DNA of 32,828 bases from a virus: UHGV virus genome UHGV-0144137; one strand, written 5' to 3'. Under the pieces are notes generated by a model. The model did no database searches, was not told the DNA's origin, and saw only the letters and a list, made by a program, of their open reading frames with translations. Every line of letters begins with the position of its first letter. The stretch's first letter is position 1. Both the position numbers and the translations under genes were made by a program. Of the stretch, positions 1-32,828 are shown in pieces.

Positions 1-53
1 TATCCAAAGCGGCATTGATGGCGATCGGGCAGGGCGTCAGGAGGGCTGCATGA
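1..53 (+). CDS. 3' end of an upstream nin-region ORF (NinB-like), partial
   Basis: Open frame from the window edge reading ...[16 protein letters not shown] to a TGA at 51-53 that overlaps the ninC ATG at 50 (ATGA coupling). Identity inferred from lambda nin gene order only. Confidence 0.3.
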   Translation, partial: SKAALMAIGQGVRRAA

Positions 54-895
54 TAAATGTCGTTAGTTTCTCCGGTGGCAGGACGTCAGCATATTTGCTC
101 TGGCTAATGGAGCAAAAGCGACAGGCAGGTGAAGACGTGCATTACGTTTTCATGGATACAGGGGCAGAGCACCCTAAAACATATGAGTTCATCCGAAATA
201 TCGTCAGTAACTGGAAAATAGACTTACATTGCCTTCGTGTAATACCTAATCCAGAAATGGGGAAGGCCAGTAGTTATGAAGAGATAGGTGTCAATGATAT
301 TGGTCCAGATCTTATACCGTGGAAAAGGATGTTAAATAAATACGGACATCCATATATCGGCGGTGCGTTCTGTACCGACAGAATGAAGTCTGTTCCATTC
401 ACCAAATATTGTCAGGAAAAGTTTGGGAAAGGAAATTACATCACATGGCTTGGCATTCGCACAGATGAACCAAACAGGCTTAAAAGGGCTAATGGTTTTC
501 GGTACCTGGCTGATATAAGCGATTTTGAAAAACAGGATGTGCTTGATTGGTGGAGTGAGCAGAAGTTTGATCTTGGCATACAGGAGCATCTTGGTAATTG
601 TGTTTTCTGCATAAAAAAAAGTATGCAAAAGGTGGCGCTGGCAGCCATGGATGAGCCAGAACTTGCAGATGCATTTATCAACATCCTTGATACAGAAATA
701 AAAACAGGAAAGGAACCGGTTATGTATCGAGGGAATAATACACTTAAATCACTGATTGCCTTGTTTAGTGATATATCAAGAGATGAGTTAGCCTCAAGAA
801 TGACATCAATGCGACAGTATGATTCAGGTTCGTGTTCTGAATCATGTGAAGCATTTTCATGTCAGCTTGGATTTAATTTTGAGGATGCGACATGA
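50..895 (+). CDS. ninC: NinC-like protein, PAPS reductase / PP-loop ATP pyrophosphatase fold
   Basis: 281 aa ORF; N-terminal PP-loop-like motif [12 protein letters not shown]; position immediately upstream of ninF as in lambda. Confidence 0.75.
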
Positions 896-23866: not shown

Positions 23867-25945
23867 ATGACAGACATTACAGCCAATGTTGTAGTGAGTA
23901 TGCCTTCGCAACTCTTCACTATGGCTCGTTCTTTTAAAGCCGTAGCCAATGGCAAAATTTATATCGGTAAAATTGACACTGACCCGGTAAATCCTGAAAA
24001 CCAGATTCAGGTCTATGTTGAGAACGAAGATGGTTCTCACGTTCCTGTTTCTCAACCAATCATCATTAACGCTGCTGGTTACCCTGTATATAACGGACAG
24101 ATTGCCAAGTTCGTAACTGTGCAAGGCCATTCTATGGCGGTTTATGATGCGTATGGTGCGCAGCAGTTTTATTTTCCTAATGTGCTGAAGTATGACCCTG
24201 ATCAGTTTCAGAAGAGGTTGGCATCCTTTGATGATGGTGATGGGGATGAATTAGTGTCGGTGAAACAACCATTCCCCGGAGCAGCAAATCAAACTCAACA
24301 CCAAAAGAACCAACAAATCATTGATGTTCTTGACTTCGGTGCTCATCCATCGAATGCTGACAATAAAGTAGCTCTGCAATTTGCGCTAGATGCAATATAT
24401 AGCATTGGAGGAGGTACACTACAGTTTTCACTACCAGGCATATATACTTTGCTTTCTGAGTTGCAAATAAAATCAAATACTCACCTAAAGATGACTGATG
24501 GCGTAACCATTAAACGTAATTTTTCTAATGACGTCATGCTGAGAATAAGCCCTAATACTGGCACTAACATTAAAATAACAGGCGGAATACTAGATGGAGG
24601 AGGACAAGACCACCCTACAGATCCTTTTGACATCATTGCAGCCTCCTCACCAAGAAATCTTTCTATTGTTGGAGTAACATTTCTTGATGTAGTCGATTTT
24701 CATGCTGTAGATATTGCTGACGGGCAAGGGGTGATTATAAGAGACTGTAAGTTTCTTGGCTTCAAACCACTTTCCAACCGAAATTATTCAGAAGCGATCC
24801 AGTTAGATCCGGGGATTGAATCTCTTGGCGATTATTACCCAAACATCAATGTTCTTGTTGATAACTGTTATTTTGGTTCAAATCCACAAAATACCACCAC
24901 TGGGTTTGGGGCGTGGGGGGTGGGGGTTGGGAACCATGCTAATTCATATGGGAATCAGGACAAAAATATAAGGGTCATAAACTGCAGGTTCGATGGAATG
25001 CTCTTTGCCGGGGTAAGGGTTTTCAACTGGTATGATTGGGTGGTTAGCGGATGCTCTTTCTATAACAGTACCGCGCGAGGAGTTCATGTAACCCCATTCC
25101 CATCATCATCAAAACCACAGGGGGCAAGGAGGGGGCGCATTGTTGGCAATTATTTTGAAGGCGTTAGATCCCCGATTCTTCTGGCTGCACCTACATATCC
25201 ATATACAGATACATCAGATGCATTTCATGAAGATATCGTAATATCCAACAATTCCATGTTTATTACAGAGTCTCAATCATATGCAGTAGACGCAAGATGG
25301 GTTTCAGGACTAACTGTCACTGGAAACACAGCAAGAGGCGGAATCGGTTTTTTCAAAGGTGATTTTATTAACAAATCAATCATCTCTAATAATGAATACG
25401 ATTCAGGAACATCAAGTTCTTTATGGATTTCTGAAACTAATGCAGAAGAATTTATAGGGTCTGGTTTTTCGCATGATGTTGTAATTTCTAGCAACATCTT
25501 TAGAAATATTTCCCTGCATGGGATTCATATTAATGGTAAATATTCAAATGTTACTATTCAATCAAACATTATAGTTGGGGTTTCTACCGCAGATAATAAC
25601 CATAATGGCATACGAATTGACTCTGGTGCAGAAAATGTAATTGTTAGTTCAAATCAAATTCGTGATGGCGTTGCAAATAATAAACCATCAGTTGGTATAT
25701 TTGCTACATCAAGCTGTAAGAGCGTGTCATTTATAGGGAATGTTTCATTTGGAACATCAGCCACACAGAATAATCAAGCTACAGATAAAAGCTCACTTGT
25801 GATATTTGGGCAAGAAGGCAACCCAACATCTAGCGGAGTTGGAGCACCAGTTGGTTCTATTTACACTCGTTCTGATGGAGGTGGAAATACAGTACTTTAT
25901 ATAAAGGAAAGCAACACAAATGCTACAGGTTGGGTTAATAAGTAA
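23867..25945 (+). CDS. Tailspike protein: P22-type head-binding domain plus divergent beta-helix receptor-binding domain
   Basis: 692 aa; the first ~115 aa ([34 protein letters not shown]...NVLKYDPDQ) match the P22 gp9 head-binding domain; the remainder is a Gly/Asn/Ser-rich beta-helix-like sequence on AT-rich DNA. Confidence 0.9.
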
Positions 25946-26472
25946 AACCAGCATTTAAATACAATATATATCATAAAACTTACATAATAGTTATAACTAT
26001 AATTCTTGCTTAAGAATTTATAAAAACTGAGACACACAAAGCTTTGCACTTGATTGCAAGGCGTTGTGCTCTTCGATAGTGGTTAAGGTGGATCACTCCA
26101 CCTTTTCATCAAGCCAGTCCGCCCACCACTGCATCATTTCTCTGCGCTTATCGAGATACTGAGCATGGTTGTAAATTCAGCTAACCCAATGCGTTGACAA
26201 AAAATTAGCGCAAGAGGACAAAAAATCACCTTGCGCTAATGCTCTGTTGTAGGTCACTAATGCCATCTAAGTAGTTGATTCATAGTGACTGCATATGTTG
26301 TGTTTTGTCGCATTTTGCAGTCTGTTATTTAACCGTAAATACTTATAAACATATGATTTTTAAATAATTTATATGATTTTGTCATCCTTTAGGTGAAAAA
26401 GAACGCTGGAGTACCAGCGGTGATGTTCACGAAATTAAAAATCTTCCTGTAATCCTCTATAGCAAACAGGCG

Positions 26473-26901
26473 TTGATGACGTCGGCAAAGGACGGCCTGT
26501 TGAAGAAGAATGTATCAGGGGTGAAGAGTTCCAAGCATGGCTGCTTTGTTTATGGCGATACCTCGTTTTCTTTCAGTGAGGTAATGGAAGCTATCTTCAT
26601 CAGTGGGCTGTTCTTCTATGCGCCAATAGACGCCGCCAGTAGTCTTGATGAACTGAAAGTGAGTTTGGCTGGGCTGGAAGAAGAACTGGCCGAAGTACCA
26701 AAAGTGGATTCGAATGGCAATGAAACAGATAAAGAACCTACTATAGTCGTAGCCGAAGGTGCTTTTGATTCGGTCGCTGCTCACATGGAAACAGAAGCTG
26801 AGGAGTGGCAATCTATTAAGAACCTGTGCCAACGAGAAGGTGAGCTGCCCATACGTATTGGTGGTATTAAAATGGCTGAGCCACCAGAGTTTCATTTTTA
26901 G
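26473..26901 (+). CDS. hypothetical acidic protein (first gene of two-gene accessory operon)
   Basis: 142 aa ORF 52 nt upstream of the 393 aa ORF, same strand; acidic C-terminal half; no recognisable motif; true start uncertain. Confidence 0.45.
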   Translation: MMTSAKDGLLKKNVSGVKSSKHGCFVYGDTSFSFSEVMEAIFISGLFFYAPIDAASSLDELKVSLAGLEEELAEVPKVDSNGNETDKEPTIVVAEGAFDSVAAHMETEAEEWQSIKNLCQREGELPIRIGGIKMAEPPEFHF

Positions 26902-26961
26902 TTTAAAAGCAACAATCTACCACTTAATGATTACGAAGCTATAAGTTGAAGGATGATTCAC

Positions 26962-28134
26962 ATGCCACACAAGAAAGTAGCATTACAGCTCATTGAAGAA
27001 ACACTTAAAGAACTCGAGTCACCAAAAGGTTCTTTGTTATCGGCTATACAAAAACTACAGCGGACTTCGGATATCATCAATGATGATGATAAAAAGATAT
27101 GGTGTGCTATTCAATTAGGTGATACTAAATATACAAAGCCAATAACTGAATTGCTTAAGTTTGTTATTGAGGCTGAAAATACAAAAAATAAATCTTTCCA
27201 AGAAAATTTAGACAAACGAATACAAGAACTTGCCAAATTAGGAGTTAAGGCTAATATACATTATTCAGATGAAGAACTCACATTAAAAAATATTGAAAGT
27301 GGTGGTGGATATAATAACATTGGGTTTATTGAAGAGAAATATGCCGATCTTGTAAGAAAAAAACAAGGCAATGACGGAACGTATTATAAGAATAGTTTAA
27401 ATCAACATATCAATTATGTTAGAAAAAAAGCACATGAATTAGCATCGCAAATATATAATCAACTAAAATTTTCAGGTACTGTCAGCAACTGTTTTGATGT
27501 ATTGAAAAATGCTGTTGATGATAAATTATTAGATCTAAATCCAGTGATCGCAGAACAACTAATGTTGGCATTTAAAGCTATTTCTTCAGATAAAGAAGAA
27601 GAATGGTCTCAAGCTTTAACTACATGTCGTAGGCTTCTAGAAGGGTTGGCTGATGAACTTTATCCGGCATCGAAGGAAAAATTTAATGGTCGGGCCGTTG
27701 GGCAAGGTCAATACGTAAACCGCCTTTGGGCATTTATGGATGGGGCTATTCAGTCTGATAGTAATAAAGACCTTGCCAAAGCACATATAGATTTTCTCGG
27801 ATCATGGTTAGATAAAGTTAATAAGTTAACAAATAAAGGTGTTCATGCCGAGTTAGATCGGATTGAAGCTGTAAAGTCAGTATTTCACACGTATTTAGTA
27901 GTGGCGGATTTGCTTGAGTATATGTCAAATACCAAAACCTCTGTATCTAAGCCTGATATCAATAAAGCTACTTTAGATGAACTGGAAGCATTGTTAAATA
28001 TAAATAGAACAATCGCTAAAGAAATTGTTAAAGCACGAGTTCGTGAAGGCAAGCTTGATCTGGATATTTTAAAAAACATAAAAGGTATAGGTGCTAAGAC
28101 GCTTAGTAATATACAAGAAGTGTTTGTTATGTAA
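26962..28134 (+). CDS. hypothetical alpha-helical protein with C-terminal ComEA-type helix-hairpin-helix DNA-binding domain
   Basis: Track ORF 26953..28134, start set to ATG 26962 (GAAGGA Shine-Dalgarno 9 nt upstream); C-terminus INKATLDELEALLNINRTIAKEIVKARVREGKLDLDILKNIKGIGAKTLSNI fits the ComEA HhH pattern; AT-rich codon usage. Confidence 0.6.
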   Translation: MPHKKVALQLIEETLKELESPKGSLLSAIQKLQRTSDIINDDDKKIWCAIQLGDTKYTKPITELLKFVIEAENTKNKSFQENLDKRIQELAKLGVKANIHYSDEELTLKNIESGGGYNNIGFIEEKYADLVRKKQGNDGTYYKNSLNQHINYVRKKAHELASQIYNQLKFSGTVSNCFDVLKNAVDDKLLDLNPVIAEQLMLAFKAISSDKEEEWSQALTTCRRLLEGLADELYPASKEKFNGRAVGQGQYVNRLWAFMDGAIQSDSNKDLAKAHIDFLGSWLDKVNKLTNKGVHAELDRIEAVKSVFHTYLVVADLLEYMSNTKTSVSKPDINKATLDELEALLNINRTIAKEIVKARVREGKLDLDILKNIKGIGAKTLSNIQEVFVM

Positions 28135-30405: not shown

Positions 30406-31242
30406 CTAAAGACCATTTCTCGCTGATTTTATATCCAATAAGTTTATTTTATCTATCTTATCTTTGTGGATAACGATAGTAAGCTTTGCCGGAAATTTAA
30501 ACCTCATTTCACTTATTCTAAAAGTCCACAACATTATTTTAAGTAAATCCTCATCGCTAATATTTTTATGTTCCTTTATTCTAGTGATTCCAGATCCAAA
30601 GATAGGAACAGAGACACTTTTTTGAGCATATATACGATTAACTTTGTCCCAAAAATTTATTAAAAATGCTAGATAATCCGGCATTGTAAGAAAAGCTCTA
30701 TTTTTGTCGTCAAATTTTGAAAACGCAGTTAATAGATAATCATTATTAACGAAGATAGTTCCTAGCGAATATTTTTGTGTTTTACCCACTTTTCTTTTAT
30801 GGTTGACCTCAAGCAGTTCATCTTCTTCAAACTGATGATTTGAAATACGATGGTCCAAATCAGATACGGATCCCGCTAAATAGTTATCAATATATAATCC
30901 ATTAAGTGAATTATGAGAAATGATAACATCATCAACTTGCGTGTCAAAATATTCATTAAAAGCAATGACCTTGAATCCATCTTGTCTGAATAAATCGCCT
31001 GCTTTTACAGTAACAATGCTGCCCTCAACATCTAAATTAATTTCCGAAAGATTATTTGATTTAAACCATATGCCGAAATACAGTAAGAATAAAATAATTA
31101 AAAATATAATACCAAGTGTTAGTTTGTTTTCTGTTGGAATGTCTACAAAAATCAAAAAAAGTGAAAATATGGTACTAATAGTTGATGTGTAGTCTGAAAA
31201 TTTTTTAAGTATACGCTTATCGAAAAAATTAACTTTCGCCAT
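30406..31242 (-). CDS. Two-TM membrane protein with C-terminal Macro-like domain (ThsA type II-like effector candidate)
   Basis: 278 aa; two N-terminal hydrophobic helices (TISTIFSLFLIFV, LGIIFLIILFLLYFGIWF); downstream motifs DDVIISHNSLNG and SVPIFGSGITR resemble Macro-domain ADP-ribose-binding motifs (by eye); about 30% GC. Confidence 0.55.
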   Translation of the reverse strand: MAKVNFFDKRILKKFSDYTSTISTIFSLFLIFVDIPTENKLTLGIIFLIILFLLYFGIWFKSNNLSEINLDVEGSIVTVKAGDLFRQDGFKVIAFNEYFDTQVDDVIISHNSLNGLYIDNYLAGSVSDLDHRISNHQFEEDELLEVNHKRKVGKTQKYSLGTIFVNNDYLLTAFSKFDDKNRAFLTMPDYLAFLINFWDKVNRIYAQKSVSVPIFGSGITRIKEHKNISDEDLLKIMLWTFRISEMRFKFPAKLTIVIHKDKIDKINLLDIKSARNGL

Positions 31243-31378: not shown

Positions 31379-31888
31379 ATGAGTTATCGTAATAAGACAT
31401 ATGTGGCTTTTGCAAGTGAAGATATAAAGTTTTATCGTCTTATGGAGGCATGGAAAGCAAATGAAAAAATAGACTTTAACTTTTTTGATGCTCATGATCT
31501 CTTTATTTCAAGGGATACAAGTAAACCTGAAACCATAAAGCGAAACCTCCGCGAAAGGATGAAAAATGCTAAACAAGTAGTACTGTTGGGAAGCGGTAAT
31601 ACTAAGAGAAAAGGTAGCGATGGAGTATCGTTTCTTGCCCATGAAATAGATCTTATCGTAGAATTTAATCTTCCTGTTGTAATAGCTAATTTAGACGGAG
31701 ATAGAACAGTCGATAAGAACTTCATTCCTAAACCACTTTTAGATTCAGAACATTATACAGTATCTGTCTCTTTCCAACCTAAAATTATTAAATATGCATT
31801 AGATAATTACTGTGTTAACTATTACTCAAGTTCAAATAGTGGTAGTTATCTATACCCTACATCTGTTTATACTAAGCTAGGTCTGTAA
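31379..31888 (+). CDS. TIR-like (DUF1863 / ThsB-like) protein candidate
   Basis: 169 aa; N-terminus KTYVAFASEDIKFYRLMEAW and later VVLLGSGNT...AHEIDL fit the pattern of TIR-like ThsB proteins as I recall it; divergent from the TM-Macro gene. Confidence 0.5.
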   Translation: MSYRNKTYVAFASEDIKFYRLMEAWKANEKIDFNFFDAHDLFISRDTSKPETIKRNLRERMKNAKQVVLLGSGNTKRKGSDGVSFLAHEIDLIVEFNLPVVIANLDGDRTVDKNFIPKPLLDSEHYTVSVSFQPKIIKYALDNYCVNYYSSSNSGSYLYPTSVYTKLGL

Positions 31889-32019: not shown

Positions 32020-32828
32020 TTATCTTCTCCTGTATGCTATTTCAGCCAACTCTCTTGCTATTTCCTTAACGCTATATAAAGAAGTTTGCAGTGCCATTTT
32101 ATCCGCCAAATAATGGCTGTATTTAGATACCTCTTGAGCATTGATATTATGCCAGATTGGCAATATAATCTTATTATCATCATACACTGCACGATTAATT
32201 AAACTATCTAATTCGTATTGTGTCCATTTCTTGTTTAGAAAGTTATGAGAAAGTATGACTATGCCATAATTTGCTTTTCTTAGGCCTAAATCAATATTTC
32301 TCCTTAAGCTATCGCCGACTTCAAGTGTCTGTTCATCATACCAAATAATTACACCAAGTCTATTTAACTCGTCTACCAGTGGTCTGACAAAAGTATCTTT
32401 ATCCTCTTTTGCATGGGATATGAAAAAATCATAGTGCGTATTATTGTTATCTTGCATGACGTCATTCTGTATTTCATATGGTTGATGAAAAATTGCTTGT
32501 AATTTTGCCCAGTCTATTTCTGCTAAAGATTTATTATTGCGATAAAATAGTTTTTGGGAAGGGAAATCAATATTCGAAATGTAAATAATAAATATATTAT
32601 TTATTTTCTTTGCCTCAACCTCCTTCCACTCCCATCTATAATCGTGGATATAAGAAATTGATGCTTGAAAATAATCATTGGAAGTTAAATTACCTGCGCG
32701 AAATGTCGCATTACTAATATTAAACGCGAGATATGAGTTACCTTCTCCGTTGAAAATAATATTATATCCCTCTTTCAATAGATATGAACGAATCTCTTTG
32801 GTTTTTAGGTGCTGTTTCCATGCGAGGA
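32020..32828 (-). CDS. TIR-domain protein (N-terminus beyond window edge)
   Basis: Canonical TIR motifs YDFFISHAKEDKDTFVRPLVDEL...WYDE...IVILSHNFLNKKWTQYEL in the C-terminal half; the reading frame stays open upstream of the TTG at 32778 to the end of the window, so the gene is probably truncated by the window. Confidence 0.75.
   Translation of the reverse strand, partial: LAWKQHLKTKEIRSYLLKEGYNIIFNGEGNSYLAFNISNATFRAGNLTSNDYFQASISYIHDYRWEWKEVEAKKINNIFIIYISNIDFPSQKLFYRNNKSLAEIDWAKLQAIFHQPYEIQNDVMQDNNNTHYDFFISHAKEDKDTFVRPLVDELNRLGVIIWYDEQTLEVGDSLRRNIDLGLRKANYGIVILSHNFLNKKWTQYELDSLINRAVYDDNKIILPIWHNINAQEVSKYSHYLADKMALQTSLYSVKEIARELAEIAYRRR

What the first reader, a model, noticed from the sequence alone, without database searches (positions are those of the whole stretch)
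25946..26472. 527 bp AT-rich non-coding gap after the tailspike with a terminator hairpin and an 11 bp perfect inverted repeat: possible prophage boundary
No ORF of any size lies between the tailspike stop and the next gene. The gap contains a GGTGGA-TCAC-TCCACC hairpin followed by TTTT (26087-26106) and a perfect 11 bp inverted repeat ATTAGCGCAAG-N15-CTTGCGCTAAT (26204-26240) preceded by a TTGACA hexamer. In P22-like prophages the tailspike is the last gene before attR, so this gap may hold the attachment core or the junction with a neighbouring accessory island. GC content falls sharply from here onward.
Basis: seen in the sequence. Interest (0 to 1): 0.4.

Follow-up and report, generated by a model that had tools for sequence, protein, structure and literature searches.

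The report
Prophage right end: HK022-type attR
The "non-coding gap" is the right-hand junction (attR) of a P22-like prophage that uses the integration machinery of coliphage HK022; the mechanism is textbook, but the phage sits inside a gene of a pathogenicity island instead of at its normal chromosomal site.

Summary
The gap is a mosaic. After an AT-rich spacer (25946-26022) comes an 84-nt relic of an IntS-type integrase gene (26093-26176, minus strand), whose stop codon lies in the loop of the reported "terminator hairpin". The reported 11-bp inverted repeat is the lambda/HK022 sib/tI retroregulator (26197-26247, minus strand). Next is the attP P arm (P1, IHF H1, P2, Xis sites) and the HK022 core ATCCTTT-AGGTGAA (26384-26397). 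From 26398 the DNA is host: the 3' half of a 320-codon hypothetical gene in the tRNA-Ser (serU) / tcpC island of B2-type E. coli. The "next gene" at 26473 is only a remnant of it. I recovered the reciprocal attL from public contigs. It sits next to a 357-aa integrase 97.5% identical to HK022 Int. The same phage (0-2 mismatches in 10-12.5 kb) occupies the canonical HK022 attB (torS|torT) in other strains, and 71 of 5,426 complete genomes carry this attR module there. None carries it at the island site. So this is Int-mediated integration at a secondary attB (13/21 match, one overlap mismatch). It is a known mechanism at a new address, of modest interest.

The parts
23867..25945 (+). Tailspike gene (692 aa; P22 head-binding domain plus beta-helix). 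It is the last intact prophage gene before attR.
   Evidence: The identical protein is found on 18 public contigs.
25946..26022 (.). AT-rich spacer (GC 0.18) that travels with this tailspike module.
   Evidence: It is identical in all contigs carrying this tailspike, whichever att module follows. GC.
26023..26176 (-). Block homologous to the 3' end and downstream flank of an IntS/CPS-53-type integrase gene. This is a mosaic relic.
   Evidence: 93.5% identical to the int 3' region of phage 611R6. In strain 755 the same tailspike is followed by a full-length intS next to argW, and the match ends at about 26178. The block is contiguous with sib in phages 434 and Gally.
26093..26176 (-). 84-nt integrase pseudogene remnant (…IYNHAQYLDKRREMMQWWADWLDEKVE*).
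   Evidence: Translation. RefSeq annotates the homologous 84 nt as a pseudogene 'missing N-terminus' in strains 317 and MS15236.
26085..26106 (+). Hairpin AAGGTGGA-TCAC-TCCACCTT followed by T's. The integrase relic's stop codon (TGA on the minus strand, 26093-26095) lies in the loop. It is the probable terminator of the tailspike/late transcript (inferred).
   Evidence: (-13.2 kcal/mol, z -2.7). Not called by the consensus scan.
26197..26247 (-). sib / tI: the retroregulatory RNase III site and intrinsic terminator of the int transcript. The 11-bp perfect IR is at 26204-26214 / 26230-26240, and the minus-strand U-run comes from 26198-26203.
   Evidence: It projects onto the feature 'sib transcription processing site' of HK022 record X51962. 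It is near-identical in lambda and HK022. Minus-strand fold: -24.1 kcal/mol, z -5.5, followed by UUUUUUG.
26245..26264 (+). P1 arm-type Int-binding site (AGGTCACTAA).
   Evidence: Projection of lambda 'int 1' (27583-27602), 17/20 identical.
26268..26280 (-). IHF site H1 (AATCAACTACTTA, exact match to WATCAANNNNTTR).
   Evidence: Identical to lambda and HK022 in the alignment.
26277..26296 (-). P2 arm-type Int-binding site (CAGTCACTAT on the minus strand).
   Evidence: 20/20 identical to lambda 'int 2' (27615-27634).
26294..26326 (+). Xis (X1, X1.5/X2) and Fis binding region. X1 = TATGTTGTGTTTT.
   Evidence: Aligned with the lambda and HK022 P arm. Motif scan. The site names come from my own knowledge of lambda attP.
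26327..26383 (.). Core-proximal part of the P arm (the position of IHF site H2 in lambda/HK022). No exact IHF consensus was found.
   Evidence: Homology to HK022 attP. The consensus scan was negative here.
26384..26390 (+). Core-type Int site C (ATCCTTT), identical to HK022.
26391..26397 (+). 7-bp overlap (crossover) region AGGTGAA. Position 26397 carries the phage allele A, where the uninterrupted host site has T.
   Evidence: The 7-7-7 structure of attB is from PMC7736782.
26398..26404 (+). B' core-type half-site of the secondary attB (AAAGAAC; canonical AAAGGTT).
26398..26901 (+). 3' remnant (about codons 154-320) of the interrupted island gene (homologue of CFT073 C_RS11405 / WP_021528921.1; no Pfam or PADLOC match). 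The ORF call '26473-26901, TTG' is an artefact of the truncation.

Best explanation
The region is attR (P-O-B') of a P22-like (Lederbergvirus-type) prophage that carries the int-xis-att-sib module of coliphage HK022. The phage's heterobivalent tyrosine integrase recombined its attP (…ATCCTTT AGGTGAA TAAGTTG…) with a secondary bacterial site (TCATTAA AGGTGAT AAAGAAC). That site lies inside a hypothetical gene of the serU/tcpC genomic island. The normal site is attB(HK022), GCACTTT AGGTGAA AAAGGTT, between torS and torT. The exchange was reciprocal and conservative, and the apparent crossover is at the right edge of the 7-bp overlap. From left to right the gap contains: the tailspike-distal spacer; a relic of an older IntS-type integrase gene with its stop-codon hairpin (probable late-operon terminator); sib/tI; the P arm (P1, H1, P2, X1-X2/F); the C site; the overlap; then B' and the 3' half of the split gene. 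The following is inferred from the lambda/HK022 paradigm. In the prophage, sib is separated from int, which lies at attL about 40 kb away, so pL-driven int-xis mRNA made after induction escapes RNase III retroregulation. In the excised or infecting circle, sib lies just beyond attP downstream of int and destabilises read-through int mRNA, while pI transcripts stop at tI. For excision, Int, Xis, IHF and Fis would assemble on this P arm and pair it with attL. Because attL (AGGTGAT) and attR (AGGTGAA) differ at overlap position 7, excision from this site is predicted to be less efficient than from the canonical site.
For: The following points are shown by tool results.
(1) Host identity starts at 26391. 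It is 99.8-99.9% identical to CFT073, D8 and others, with only 4 mismatches to D8 over about 3.9 kb. In those genomes the site lies inside an intact 320-codon gene.
(2) 26185-26401 is 85% identical to the HK022 sib + attP region and 26195-26370 is 85% identical to lambda. The C site and overlap are identical to HK022, and lambda's annotated Int sites map onto the window at 17/20 and 20/20.
(3) The predicted attL-truncated product (153 aa, …FIKGD*) exists exactly in the protein collection, while the …FIKGE variant does not.
(4) attL DNA was recovered: GGTTTCATTAA AGGTGAT TAAGTTGTATATTT, followed by a 357-aa integrase with Arm-DNA-bind_1. L031 comes from the same sequencing run as the attR contig L014, which is 100% identical to the window.
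(5) That Int is 357/357 identical to the Int of the MS15236 prophage at torS|torT and 97.5% identical to HK022 Int. Xis is 97% identical.
(6) The same phage (0-2 mismatches over 10-12.5 kb, identical through 26401) lies next to torT-torR-torCAD in L007, L009 and L012.
(7) 71 of 5,426 complete genomes carry this attR module at torT and 0 carry it at the island site.
(8) The canonical attB I reconstructed equals the published attB(HK022) oligo. The torS/torT location is confirmed in PMC6814406.
(9) The allele pattern at the overlap mismatch (attL = host T, attR = phage A; the next base is host at attR and phage at attL) is one of the two outcomes expected from a heteroduplex overlap with staggered strand exchange 7 bp apart.
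Against: Nothing here is experimental. Int catalysis, sib processing and terminator function all rest on homology. The secondary site is a poor match on the B side (3/7) and has an overlap mismatch. Published work says overlap identity between partners is normally required (PMC7736782), so such an event should be rare. attL lies outside the window and was linked to it through other assemblies, although L014 and L031 come from the same run. No exact IHF consensus was found at the H2 position. The hairpin at 26087 has only a 4-T tail and failed the terminator scan. Whether torS|torT is occupied or altered in the lysogenic strain is unknown.
Confidence: 0.93

Rival explanations
1. The prophage continues through the gap, and the AT-rich genes to the right are phage accessory (moron or defence) genes. 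The gap would then be an internal intergenic regulatory region.
For: The genes to the right include Thoeris-like ThsA/ThsB and TIR proteins, which phages sometimes carry. GC is low, as is typical of morons.
Against: The same genes, in the same order and 99.8-99.9% identical, occur in about 180 complete genomes with no prophage beside them, inside the serU island next to RepL, H-NS, MobQ and TraD. The same phage at torS|torT lacks them. The reciprocal attL was found on the other side of the split gene.
Confidence: 0.01
2. The boundary is a tRNA-type attachment site, with the phage carrying a tRNA 3' end duplicate as in P22 (thrW) or Sf6/HK620 (argW).
For: A relic of an argW-type integrase (IntS) is present at 26093-26176.
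Against: ARAGORN finds no tRNA or fragment and Rfam finds nothing. The relic has lost all but 27 codons. The actual junction lies within an HK022 core, 215 bp to the right of the relic.
Confidence: 0.01
3. The junction is an assembly chimera, or it arose by illegitimate or homologous recombination rather than by Int-mediated site-specific recombination.
For: The site matches canonical attB at only 13/21 positions. Several public contigs end exactly at the core (L012, L030, L033), as happens at repeats.
Against: The identical attR junction appears in independent assemblies (L006 and L014, plus 2 similar places not shown), and attL appears in L029 and L031. The exchange is exact to the base, with no loss or gain, and it falls precisely at the boundaries of the HK022 overlap. 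The shared identity (AGGTGA) is far too short for RecA-dependent recombination.
Confidence: 0.03
4. The 11-bp inverted repeat preceded by TTGACA is a promoter/operator, that is, a repressor-binding palindrome controlling rightward transcription.
For: There is a TTGACA hexamer at 26194-26199 and a perfect palindromic arrangement.
Against: No -10 element lies at the proper spacing, and the promoter scan did not call it. The whole element, including TGACAAAAAA, is conserved in lambda and HK022, where it is annotated as sib. On the minus strand it forms a stem followed by UUUUUUG, the form of an intrinsic terminator.
Confidence: 0.03

Closest known systems
Coliphage HK022 attP / sib / int-xis module (GenBank X51962; attB between torS and torT)
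   Same: sib hairpin, P1, H1, P2, X1, C site and 7-bp overlap are the same (85% nt identity over 217 bp, with C and O identical). P' is near-identical. Int is 97.5% and Xis 97% identical. The same phage uses the same canonical attB in other strains.
   Different: Here the module sits in a P22-like podovirus genome directly after the tailspike gene, and in this window it has recombined with a non-canonical site inside an island gene.
Phage lambda attR (POB') and sib/tI retroregulation
   Same: The architecture and order are the same (sib - P1 - H1 - P2 - X1/X2/F - H2 - core). P2 is 20/20 identical and sib nearly identical. The logic that integration separates sib from int also applies.
   Different: The core and overlap differ (lambda GCTTTTTTATACTAA against ATCCTTTAGGTGAA). 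Int is only about 75% identical, and the chromosomal target differs.
Phage Gally of E. coli LF82 (P22-like podophage integrated at torS/torT; PMC9928086)
   Same: It is a P22-like genome with the same block of relic, sib, P arm and HK022 core (90% identity over 26023-26401; LF82 attR at torT; described).
   Different: Gally is at the canonical site and has a different tailspike and early genes.
Secondary attachment sites of lambda-family integrases (classical lambda genetics; HK022 'attB'-like sites, PMC7736782)
   Same: Partial core similarity is concentrated in the overlap (6/7) and one half-site (B' keeps CTTT on the complementary strand). The exchange is exact and reciprocal, and the overlap heterology is segregated between attL and attR.
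   Different: This particular site (serU-island gene) was not found in 5,426 complete genomes or in the papers I searched. It is a natural event, not an engineered one.
IntS / CPS-53 (KplE1)-type integration module at argW, as in Sf6/HK620-like prophages
   Same: The 84-nt relic and its hairpin are the 3' end of such an int gene. Strain 755 has the full gene behind the same tailspike.
   Different: Only 27 codons remain here. There is no argW fragment, so this module is not functional.

Membership tests
Lambda/HK022-type attR (P-O-B') of a heterobivalent tyrosine integrase | Arm-type Int sites P1 and P2 in the P arm | tested here: met
   26245-26264 (17/20 to lambda int 1) and 26277-26296 (20/20 to lambda int 2; exact CAGTCACTAT).
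Lambda/HK022-type attR (P-O-B') of a heterobivalent tyrosine integrase | IHF and Xis/Fis sites between the arm sites and the core | tested here: inconclusive
   H1 has an exact IHF consensus at 26268-26280, and X1 TATGTTGTGTTTT is at 26294-26306. The X2/F and H2 regions align with HK022, but no exact IHF consensus was found at H2. Protein binding cannot be tested here.
Lambda/HK022-type attR (P-O-B') of a heterobivalent tyrosine integrase | Core-type site plus 7-bp overlap of the cognate phage, abutting bacterial DNA | tested here: met
   ATCCTTT AGGTGAA is identical to HK022, and host identity follows from 26391/26398.
Lambda/HK022-type attR (P-O-B') of a heterobivalent tyrosine integrase | Reciprocal attL (B-O-P') adjacent to a cognate int-xis at the other prophage end, with no gain or loss of bases | tested here: met
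   L029 and L031: TCATTAA AGGTGAT TAAGTTG…, followed by a 357-aa Int with Arm-DNA-bind_1. This attL is outside the window and was found in other assemblies of the same lysogen.
Lambda/HK022-type attR (P-O-B') of a heterobivalent tyrosine integrase | Int-dependent integration and Int+Xis-dependent excision | not testable with these tools
   This needs genetics or in vitro recombination.
sib / tI retroregulator | Stable hairpin followed by a U-run on the int-sense strand, located just beyond the P arm | tested here: met
   Minus-strand fold of -24.1 kcal/mol (z -5.5) followed by UUUUUUG. It lies 4 nt left of P1 and projects onto the HK022 'sib' feature.
sib / tI retroregulator | RNase III cleavage of read-through transcripts and termination of pI transcripts | not testable with these tools
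   Inferred from lambda/HK022. There is no Rfam model for it (one search found nothing).
Canonical attB(HK022) | Sequence GCACTTT AGGTGAA AAAGGTT in the torS-torT intergenic region | tested here: not met
   The island site is TCATTAA AGGTGAT AAAGAAC (B 3/7, O 6/7, B' 4/7) inside a coding sequence. It is therefore a secondary site.
tRNA-gene attachment site | A tRNA 3'-end sequence at the junction | tested here: not met
   ARAGORN found 0 genes in 25500-27500. Rfam gave no tRNA hit.
P22-like (Lederbergvirus-type) prophage | P22-type virion module ending with a tailspike that has a P22 head-binding domain | tested here: met
   Pfam hits: P22_portal, P22 coat/scaffold order, P22_gp7, Inj_translocase, Phage_P22_gp16, P22_AR, Head_binding.

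The most novel reading that the evidence does not exclude
The island gene may be a genuine recurrent target or hotspot rather than a one-off accident. Two unrelated mobile elements interrupt it within 3 bp of each other: the HK022-type prophage at AGGTGAT|, and in another strain an IS3-family element with target duplication ATA. This could reflect selection for inactivating this gene, or for uncoupling the ComEA-like gene just downstream, in an island that also carries Thoeris and TcpC. In addition, the attL/attR overlap mismatch may partly lock the prophage in place, which would make this a natural case of Int-overlap heterology shaping prophage domestication.
Probability: 0.08. Interest if true: 0.5.

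Novelty: new member of a known kind. Interest (0 to 1): 0.25.

Why it matters
For annotation, the result fixes the prophage boundary to the base (overlap 26391-26397). It also shows that the ORF called at 26473 is a gene remnant, and it explains every structured element in the gap (sib/tI, arm sites, integrase relic).

For biology, it gives a clean natural example of an HK022-type integrase using a secondary site with an overlap mismatch, with all four att sites available. It shows one tailspike module coupled to three different integration modules. The shared integrase relic is a plausible recombination joint for that module swapping.

The insertion splits a gene in the uropathogenic serU/tcpC island and probably separates the downstream ComEA-like gene from its promoter. 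None of this changes current understanding of site-specific recombination.

Tried and rejected
- **Junction scans:** I scanned IMG/VR, JGI metagenome contigs and GTDB species representatives for the exact attR junction and for the predicted attL. There were 0 hits in all six scans. The lysogen is simply absent from those collections, so these negatives say nothing.
- **Homologue search for the truncated product:** Two homologous-protein searches did not list the attL-truncated protein. They led instead to an IS3-interrupted allele (P0121). The exact-sequence look-up is what succeeded.
- **Walking left from the window:** Look-up of the first window gene stopped short of int. The metagenome scaffold that carries the island attR ends in the ea22 region.
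- **RNA searches:** Rfam gave only a sub-threshold microRNA chance hit, and no tRNA was found.
- **Terminator/promoter scan:** It called only a hairpin inside the host gene remnant, on the minus strand at 26404-26419.
- **Interrupted gene:** Pfam and PADLOC give no function for it.
- **Not determined:** I did not establish whether torS|torT is occupied in the lysogenic strain.

Full report
**Observation.** The tailspike gene (23867-25945; P22 head-binding domain) ends at 25945. The hairpin GGTGGA-TCAC-TCCACC plus TTTT is at 26087-26106, the perfect 11-bp inverted repeat with a 15-nt spacer is at 26204-26240, and TTGACA is at 26194-26199. The inverted repeat is unlikely by chance: it occurs in 22 of 5000 shuffles and its minus-strand RNA fold has z = -5.5. 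Two statements need correcting. Small ORFs of 28-50 aa do exist in the gap. The right end of the "gap" is the interior of a truncated host gene, not intergenic DNA. GC falls from 0.469 in the prophage to 0.402 in the tailspike, 0.362 in the gap and 0.359 in the island.

**Where the phage ends.** A megablast of 25400-27400 against 5,426 complete E. coli genomes gave matches of 99.8-99.9% (CFT073, Nissle 1917, 536, D8 and others) that all begin at window 26391. No genome spans the junction. In CFT073 and D8 the matching DNA lies inside an intact 320-codon hypothetical gene (C_RS11405 / WP_021528921.1). That gene belongs to the tRNA-Ser (serU) island, which also carries RepL, an H-NS paralogue, a ComEA-family protein, DUF4755, a macro-domain protein, a TIR protein, TcpC, MobQ and TraD. 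The window is collinear with that island to its end, with 4 mismatches to D8 over the roughly 3.9 kb compared. The ORF "26473-26901, TTG" is therefore the 3' remnant of a split gene.

**What lies to the left.** A blastn search against phages shows that 26023-26401 is lambdoid. HK022 matches 26185-26401, and GenBank X51962 annotates that stretch as "sib transcription processing site" and "attP site". Lambda matches 26195-26370. Projecting lambda's annotated Int-binding sites and HK022's features onto the window gives:
- sib at 26197-26247;
- P1 at 26245-26264;
- an exact IHF consensus (H1) at 26268-26280;
- P2 at 26277-26296, 20/20 identical to lambda;
- X1 at 26294-26306;
- core-type site C, ATCCTTT, at 26384-26390;
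- the overlap, AGGTGAA, at 26391-26397.

On the minus strand, which is the int-sense strand, it folds at -24.1 kcal/mol and is followed by UUUUUUG. The TTGACA is simply the complement of the terminator's tail region and is conserved as TGACAAAAAA in lambda and HK022. No promoter was called there.

**The first hairpin.** 26023-26176 is 93.5% identical to the 3' end and downstream flank of an IntS/CPS-53-type integrase gene. The minus strand reads …YNHAQYLDKRREMMQWWADWLDEKVE*, and the stop codon lies in the hairpin loop. RefSeq annotates the homologous 84 nt as a pseudogene in two complete genomes. In strain 755 the same tailspike is followed by the full-length intS next to argW. In strain 317 it is followed by the relic, sib and a lambda-type P arm at ybhB-bio, the lambda attB. 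One tailspike module is therefore found with three integration modules. Phages 434 and Gally share the relic, so it is a plausible joint for swapping modules (inference). The hairpin probably terminates the late transcript, but that is also an inference: z is only -2.7, and it has too few T's for the scan.

**Same phage, two addresses.** Looking up the exact tailspike protein returned contigs with three contexts. L006 and L014 have the window's junction, and L014 is 100% identical to the window over 6.8 kb. L007, L009 and L012 carry the same phage, with 0-2 mismatches over 10-12.5 kb. They are base-identical through 26401 and then continue GTTGAGTCGCAAAGC… into torT-torR-torCAD. In 71 of 5,426 complete genomes this attR module abuts torT. 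In strain MS15236 the whole P22-like prophage lies between torS and torT. Its attL is GCACTTT AGGTGAA TAAGTTG and its attR is ATCCTTT AGGTGAA AAAGGTT. It has a 357-aa Int 97.5% identical to HK022 Int (75.6% to lambda Int) and a 72-aa Xis. The reconstructed attB equals the published attB(HK022) oligo (PMC5512741), and the torS/torT location is documented in PMC6814406. P22-like phages with this module are already known, for example Gally in LF82 (PMC9928086).

**Testing the model through attL.** If the island junction arose by Int recombination, attL should read …TCATTAA AGGTGA(A/T) TAAGTTG…. The P' TAA codon would then truncate the island gene to exactly 153 aa.
- An exact-sequence look-up found the …FIKGD product and not …FIKGE.
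- Its contigs L029 and L031 (L031 is from the same run as L014) show GGTTTCATTAA AGGTGAT TAAGTTGTATATTT.
- This is followed by a P' arm identical to that of MS15236, and by an Int 357/357 identical to the MS15236 Int.

All four sites are therefore known:
- attB: TCATTAA-AGGTGAT-AAAGAAC
- attP: ATCCTTT-AGGTGAA-TAAGTTG
- attL: TCATTAA-AGGTGAT-TAAGTTG
- attR: ATCCTTT-AGGTGAA-AAAGAAC

The exchange is conservative. The single overlap heterology (position 7) appears as the host allele in attL and the phage allele in attR. This is one of the two outcomes expected if the overlap was heteroduplex after strand exchanges staggered by 7 bp and was then resolved by replication. Equivalently, the apparent crossover lies at the right edge of the overlap. 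The island site matches canonical attB at 13 of 21 positions (B 3/7, O 6/7, B' 4/7), so it is a secondary site. Published work states that overlap identity between partners is normally required (PMC7736782). The event should therefore be rare, and excision between the now non-identical attL and attR overlaps should be impaired (inference).

**Mechanism by homology.** In the prophage, sib at attR is about 40 kb from int at attL, so pL-driven int-xis mRNA made after induction escapes retroregulation. In the circular phage, sib lies just beyond attP downstream of int, where it triggers RNase III-dependent decay of read-through mRNA and terminates pI transcripts. The P arm at attR is the platform for Int, Xis, IHF and Fis during excision. 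None of this was or could be tested here.

**Rejected alternatives.**
- The genes to the right being phage morons is refuted.
- A tRNA-type att site is ruled out, since no tRNA was found.
- A chimera or illegitimate recombination is very unlikely, given several independent assemblies, exact reciprocity and a junction at the overlap boundaries.
- The inverted repeat being an operator is unlikely, because it is conserved as sib and has terminator geometry on the minus strand.

**Verdict.** This is an ordinary and well-understood structure, the attR of an HK022-type integration module with sib, in a known host-phage combination. The modestly new elements are the address, a secondary attB inside a serU/tcpC-island gene that is absent from 5,426 complete genomes, and the overlap mismatch. 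I rate it as a new member of a known kind with interest 0.25.

Noticed in passing
L025 10442-11730 (GCA_964056435.1 OZ043875.1); equivalent to window about 26395-26400: In another E. coli chromosome the same island gene is interrupted by a ~1.25-kb IS3-family element (ends TGAAGTGG…/…CCACTTCA; HTH_Tnp_1 + rve ORFs). Its 3-bp target duplication is ATA, at …AAAGGTGATA|IS|ATAAAGAACGC, which is 0-3 bp from the prophage crossover. So two unrelated mobile elements hit the same spot.
   Followed up: partly
window 30406-31242 (-), 31379-31888 (+), 32020-32828 (-, runs off the window): The island to the right of the prophage carries a Thoeris-type pair: ThsA macro-domain (PADLOC E = 1e-127) and ThsB TIR (E = 7e-91). 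It lies directly beside the TIR virulence factor gene tcpC (annotated in CFT073).
   Followed up: partly
window 26023-26176; L026 6691-6774; L027 4691-5848; L028 47045-47128: The same tailspike module is coupled to three different integration modules in complete genomes: IntS/argW, lambda-type at ybhB-bio, and HK022-type at torS|torT. The 84-nt IntS relic is also present next to sib in phages 434 and Gally, so it may serve as the homologous joint for module exchange.
   Followed up: partly
L012 (ends at window 26397); L030 and L033 (end at …AGGTGAT); L032 and L034 (end at …AGGTGATAA): Five short-read contigs from different samples stop exactly at the edge of the 7-bp overlap. This would be expected if attR and attP (or attL and attB) forms coexist in the sample through spontaneous excision or mixed populations, or if the int/att module is repeated in the genome.
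   Followed up: no
window 14683-15243 (+): A 186-aa NUMOD4 + HNH_3 endonuclease gene lies between the gp10-like stabilisation gene and the tail-needle gene. It is absent at that position from related P22-like prophages (L008, L028), so it is a likely homing-endonuclease insertion in the virion module.
   Followed up: no
window 26393-26430 (hairpin 26404-26419, minus strand): A 17-nt imperfect inverted repeat lies immediately right of the core, inside the host gene remnant. On the minus strand it scores as terminator-like (CGCTGGTACTCCAGCG + TTCTTTTTCA) and overlaps B'. It is present in the uninterrupted host gene too.
   Followed up: no
window 26329-26357 (+): A promoter-like site (TTAACC-17-TATGAT, 9/12) in the core-proximal P arm points into the truncated island gene and the ComEA-like gene. 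By analogy with the phage-borne torS promoter at HK022 attL (PMC6814406), it could drive downstream host genes, but the number of such hits is not above the chance expectation.
   Followed up: no
window 50-895 (+), and upstream in L015/L019 9474-10004: The nin region carries a PAPS-reductase-like gene next to a Dam methylase gene. The identical PAPS-reductase-like protein occurs in many otherwise mosaic lambdoid and P22-like prophages.
   Followed up: no
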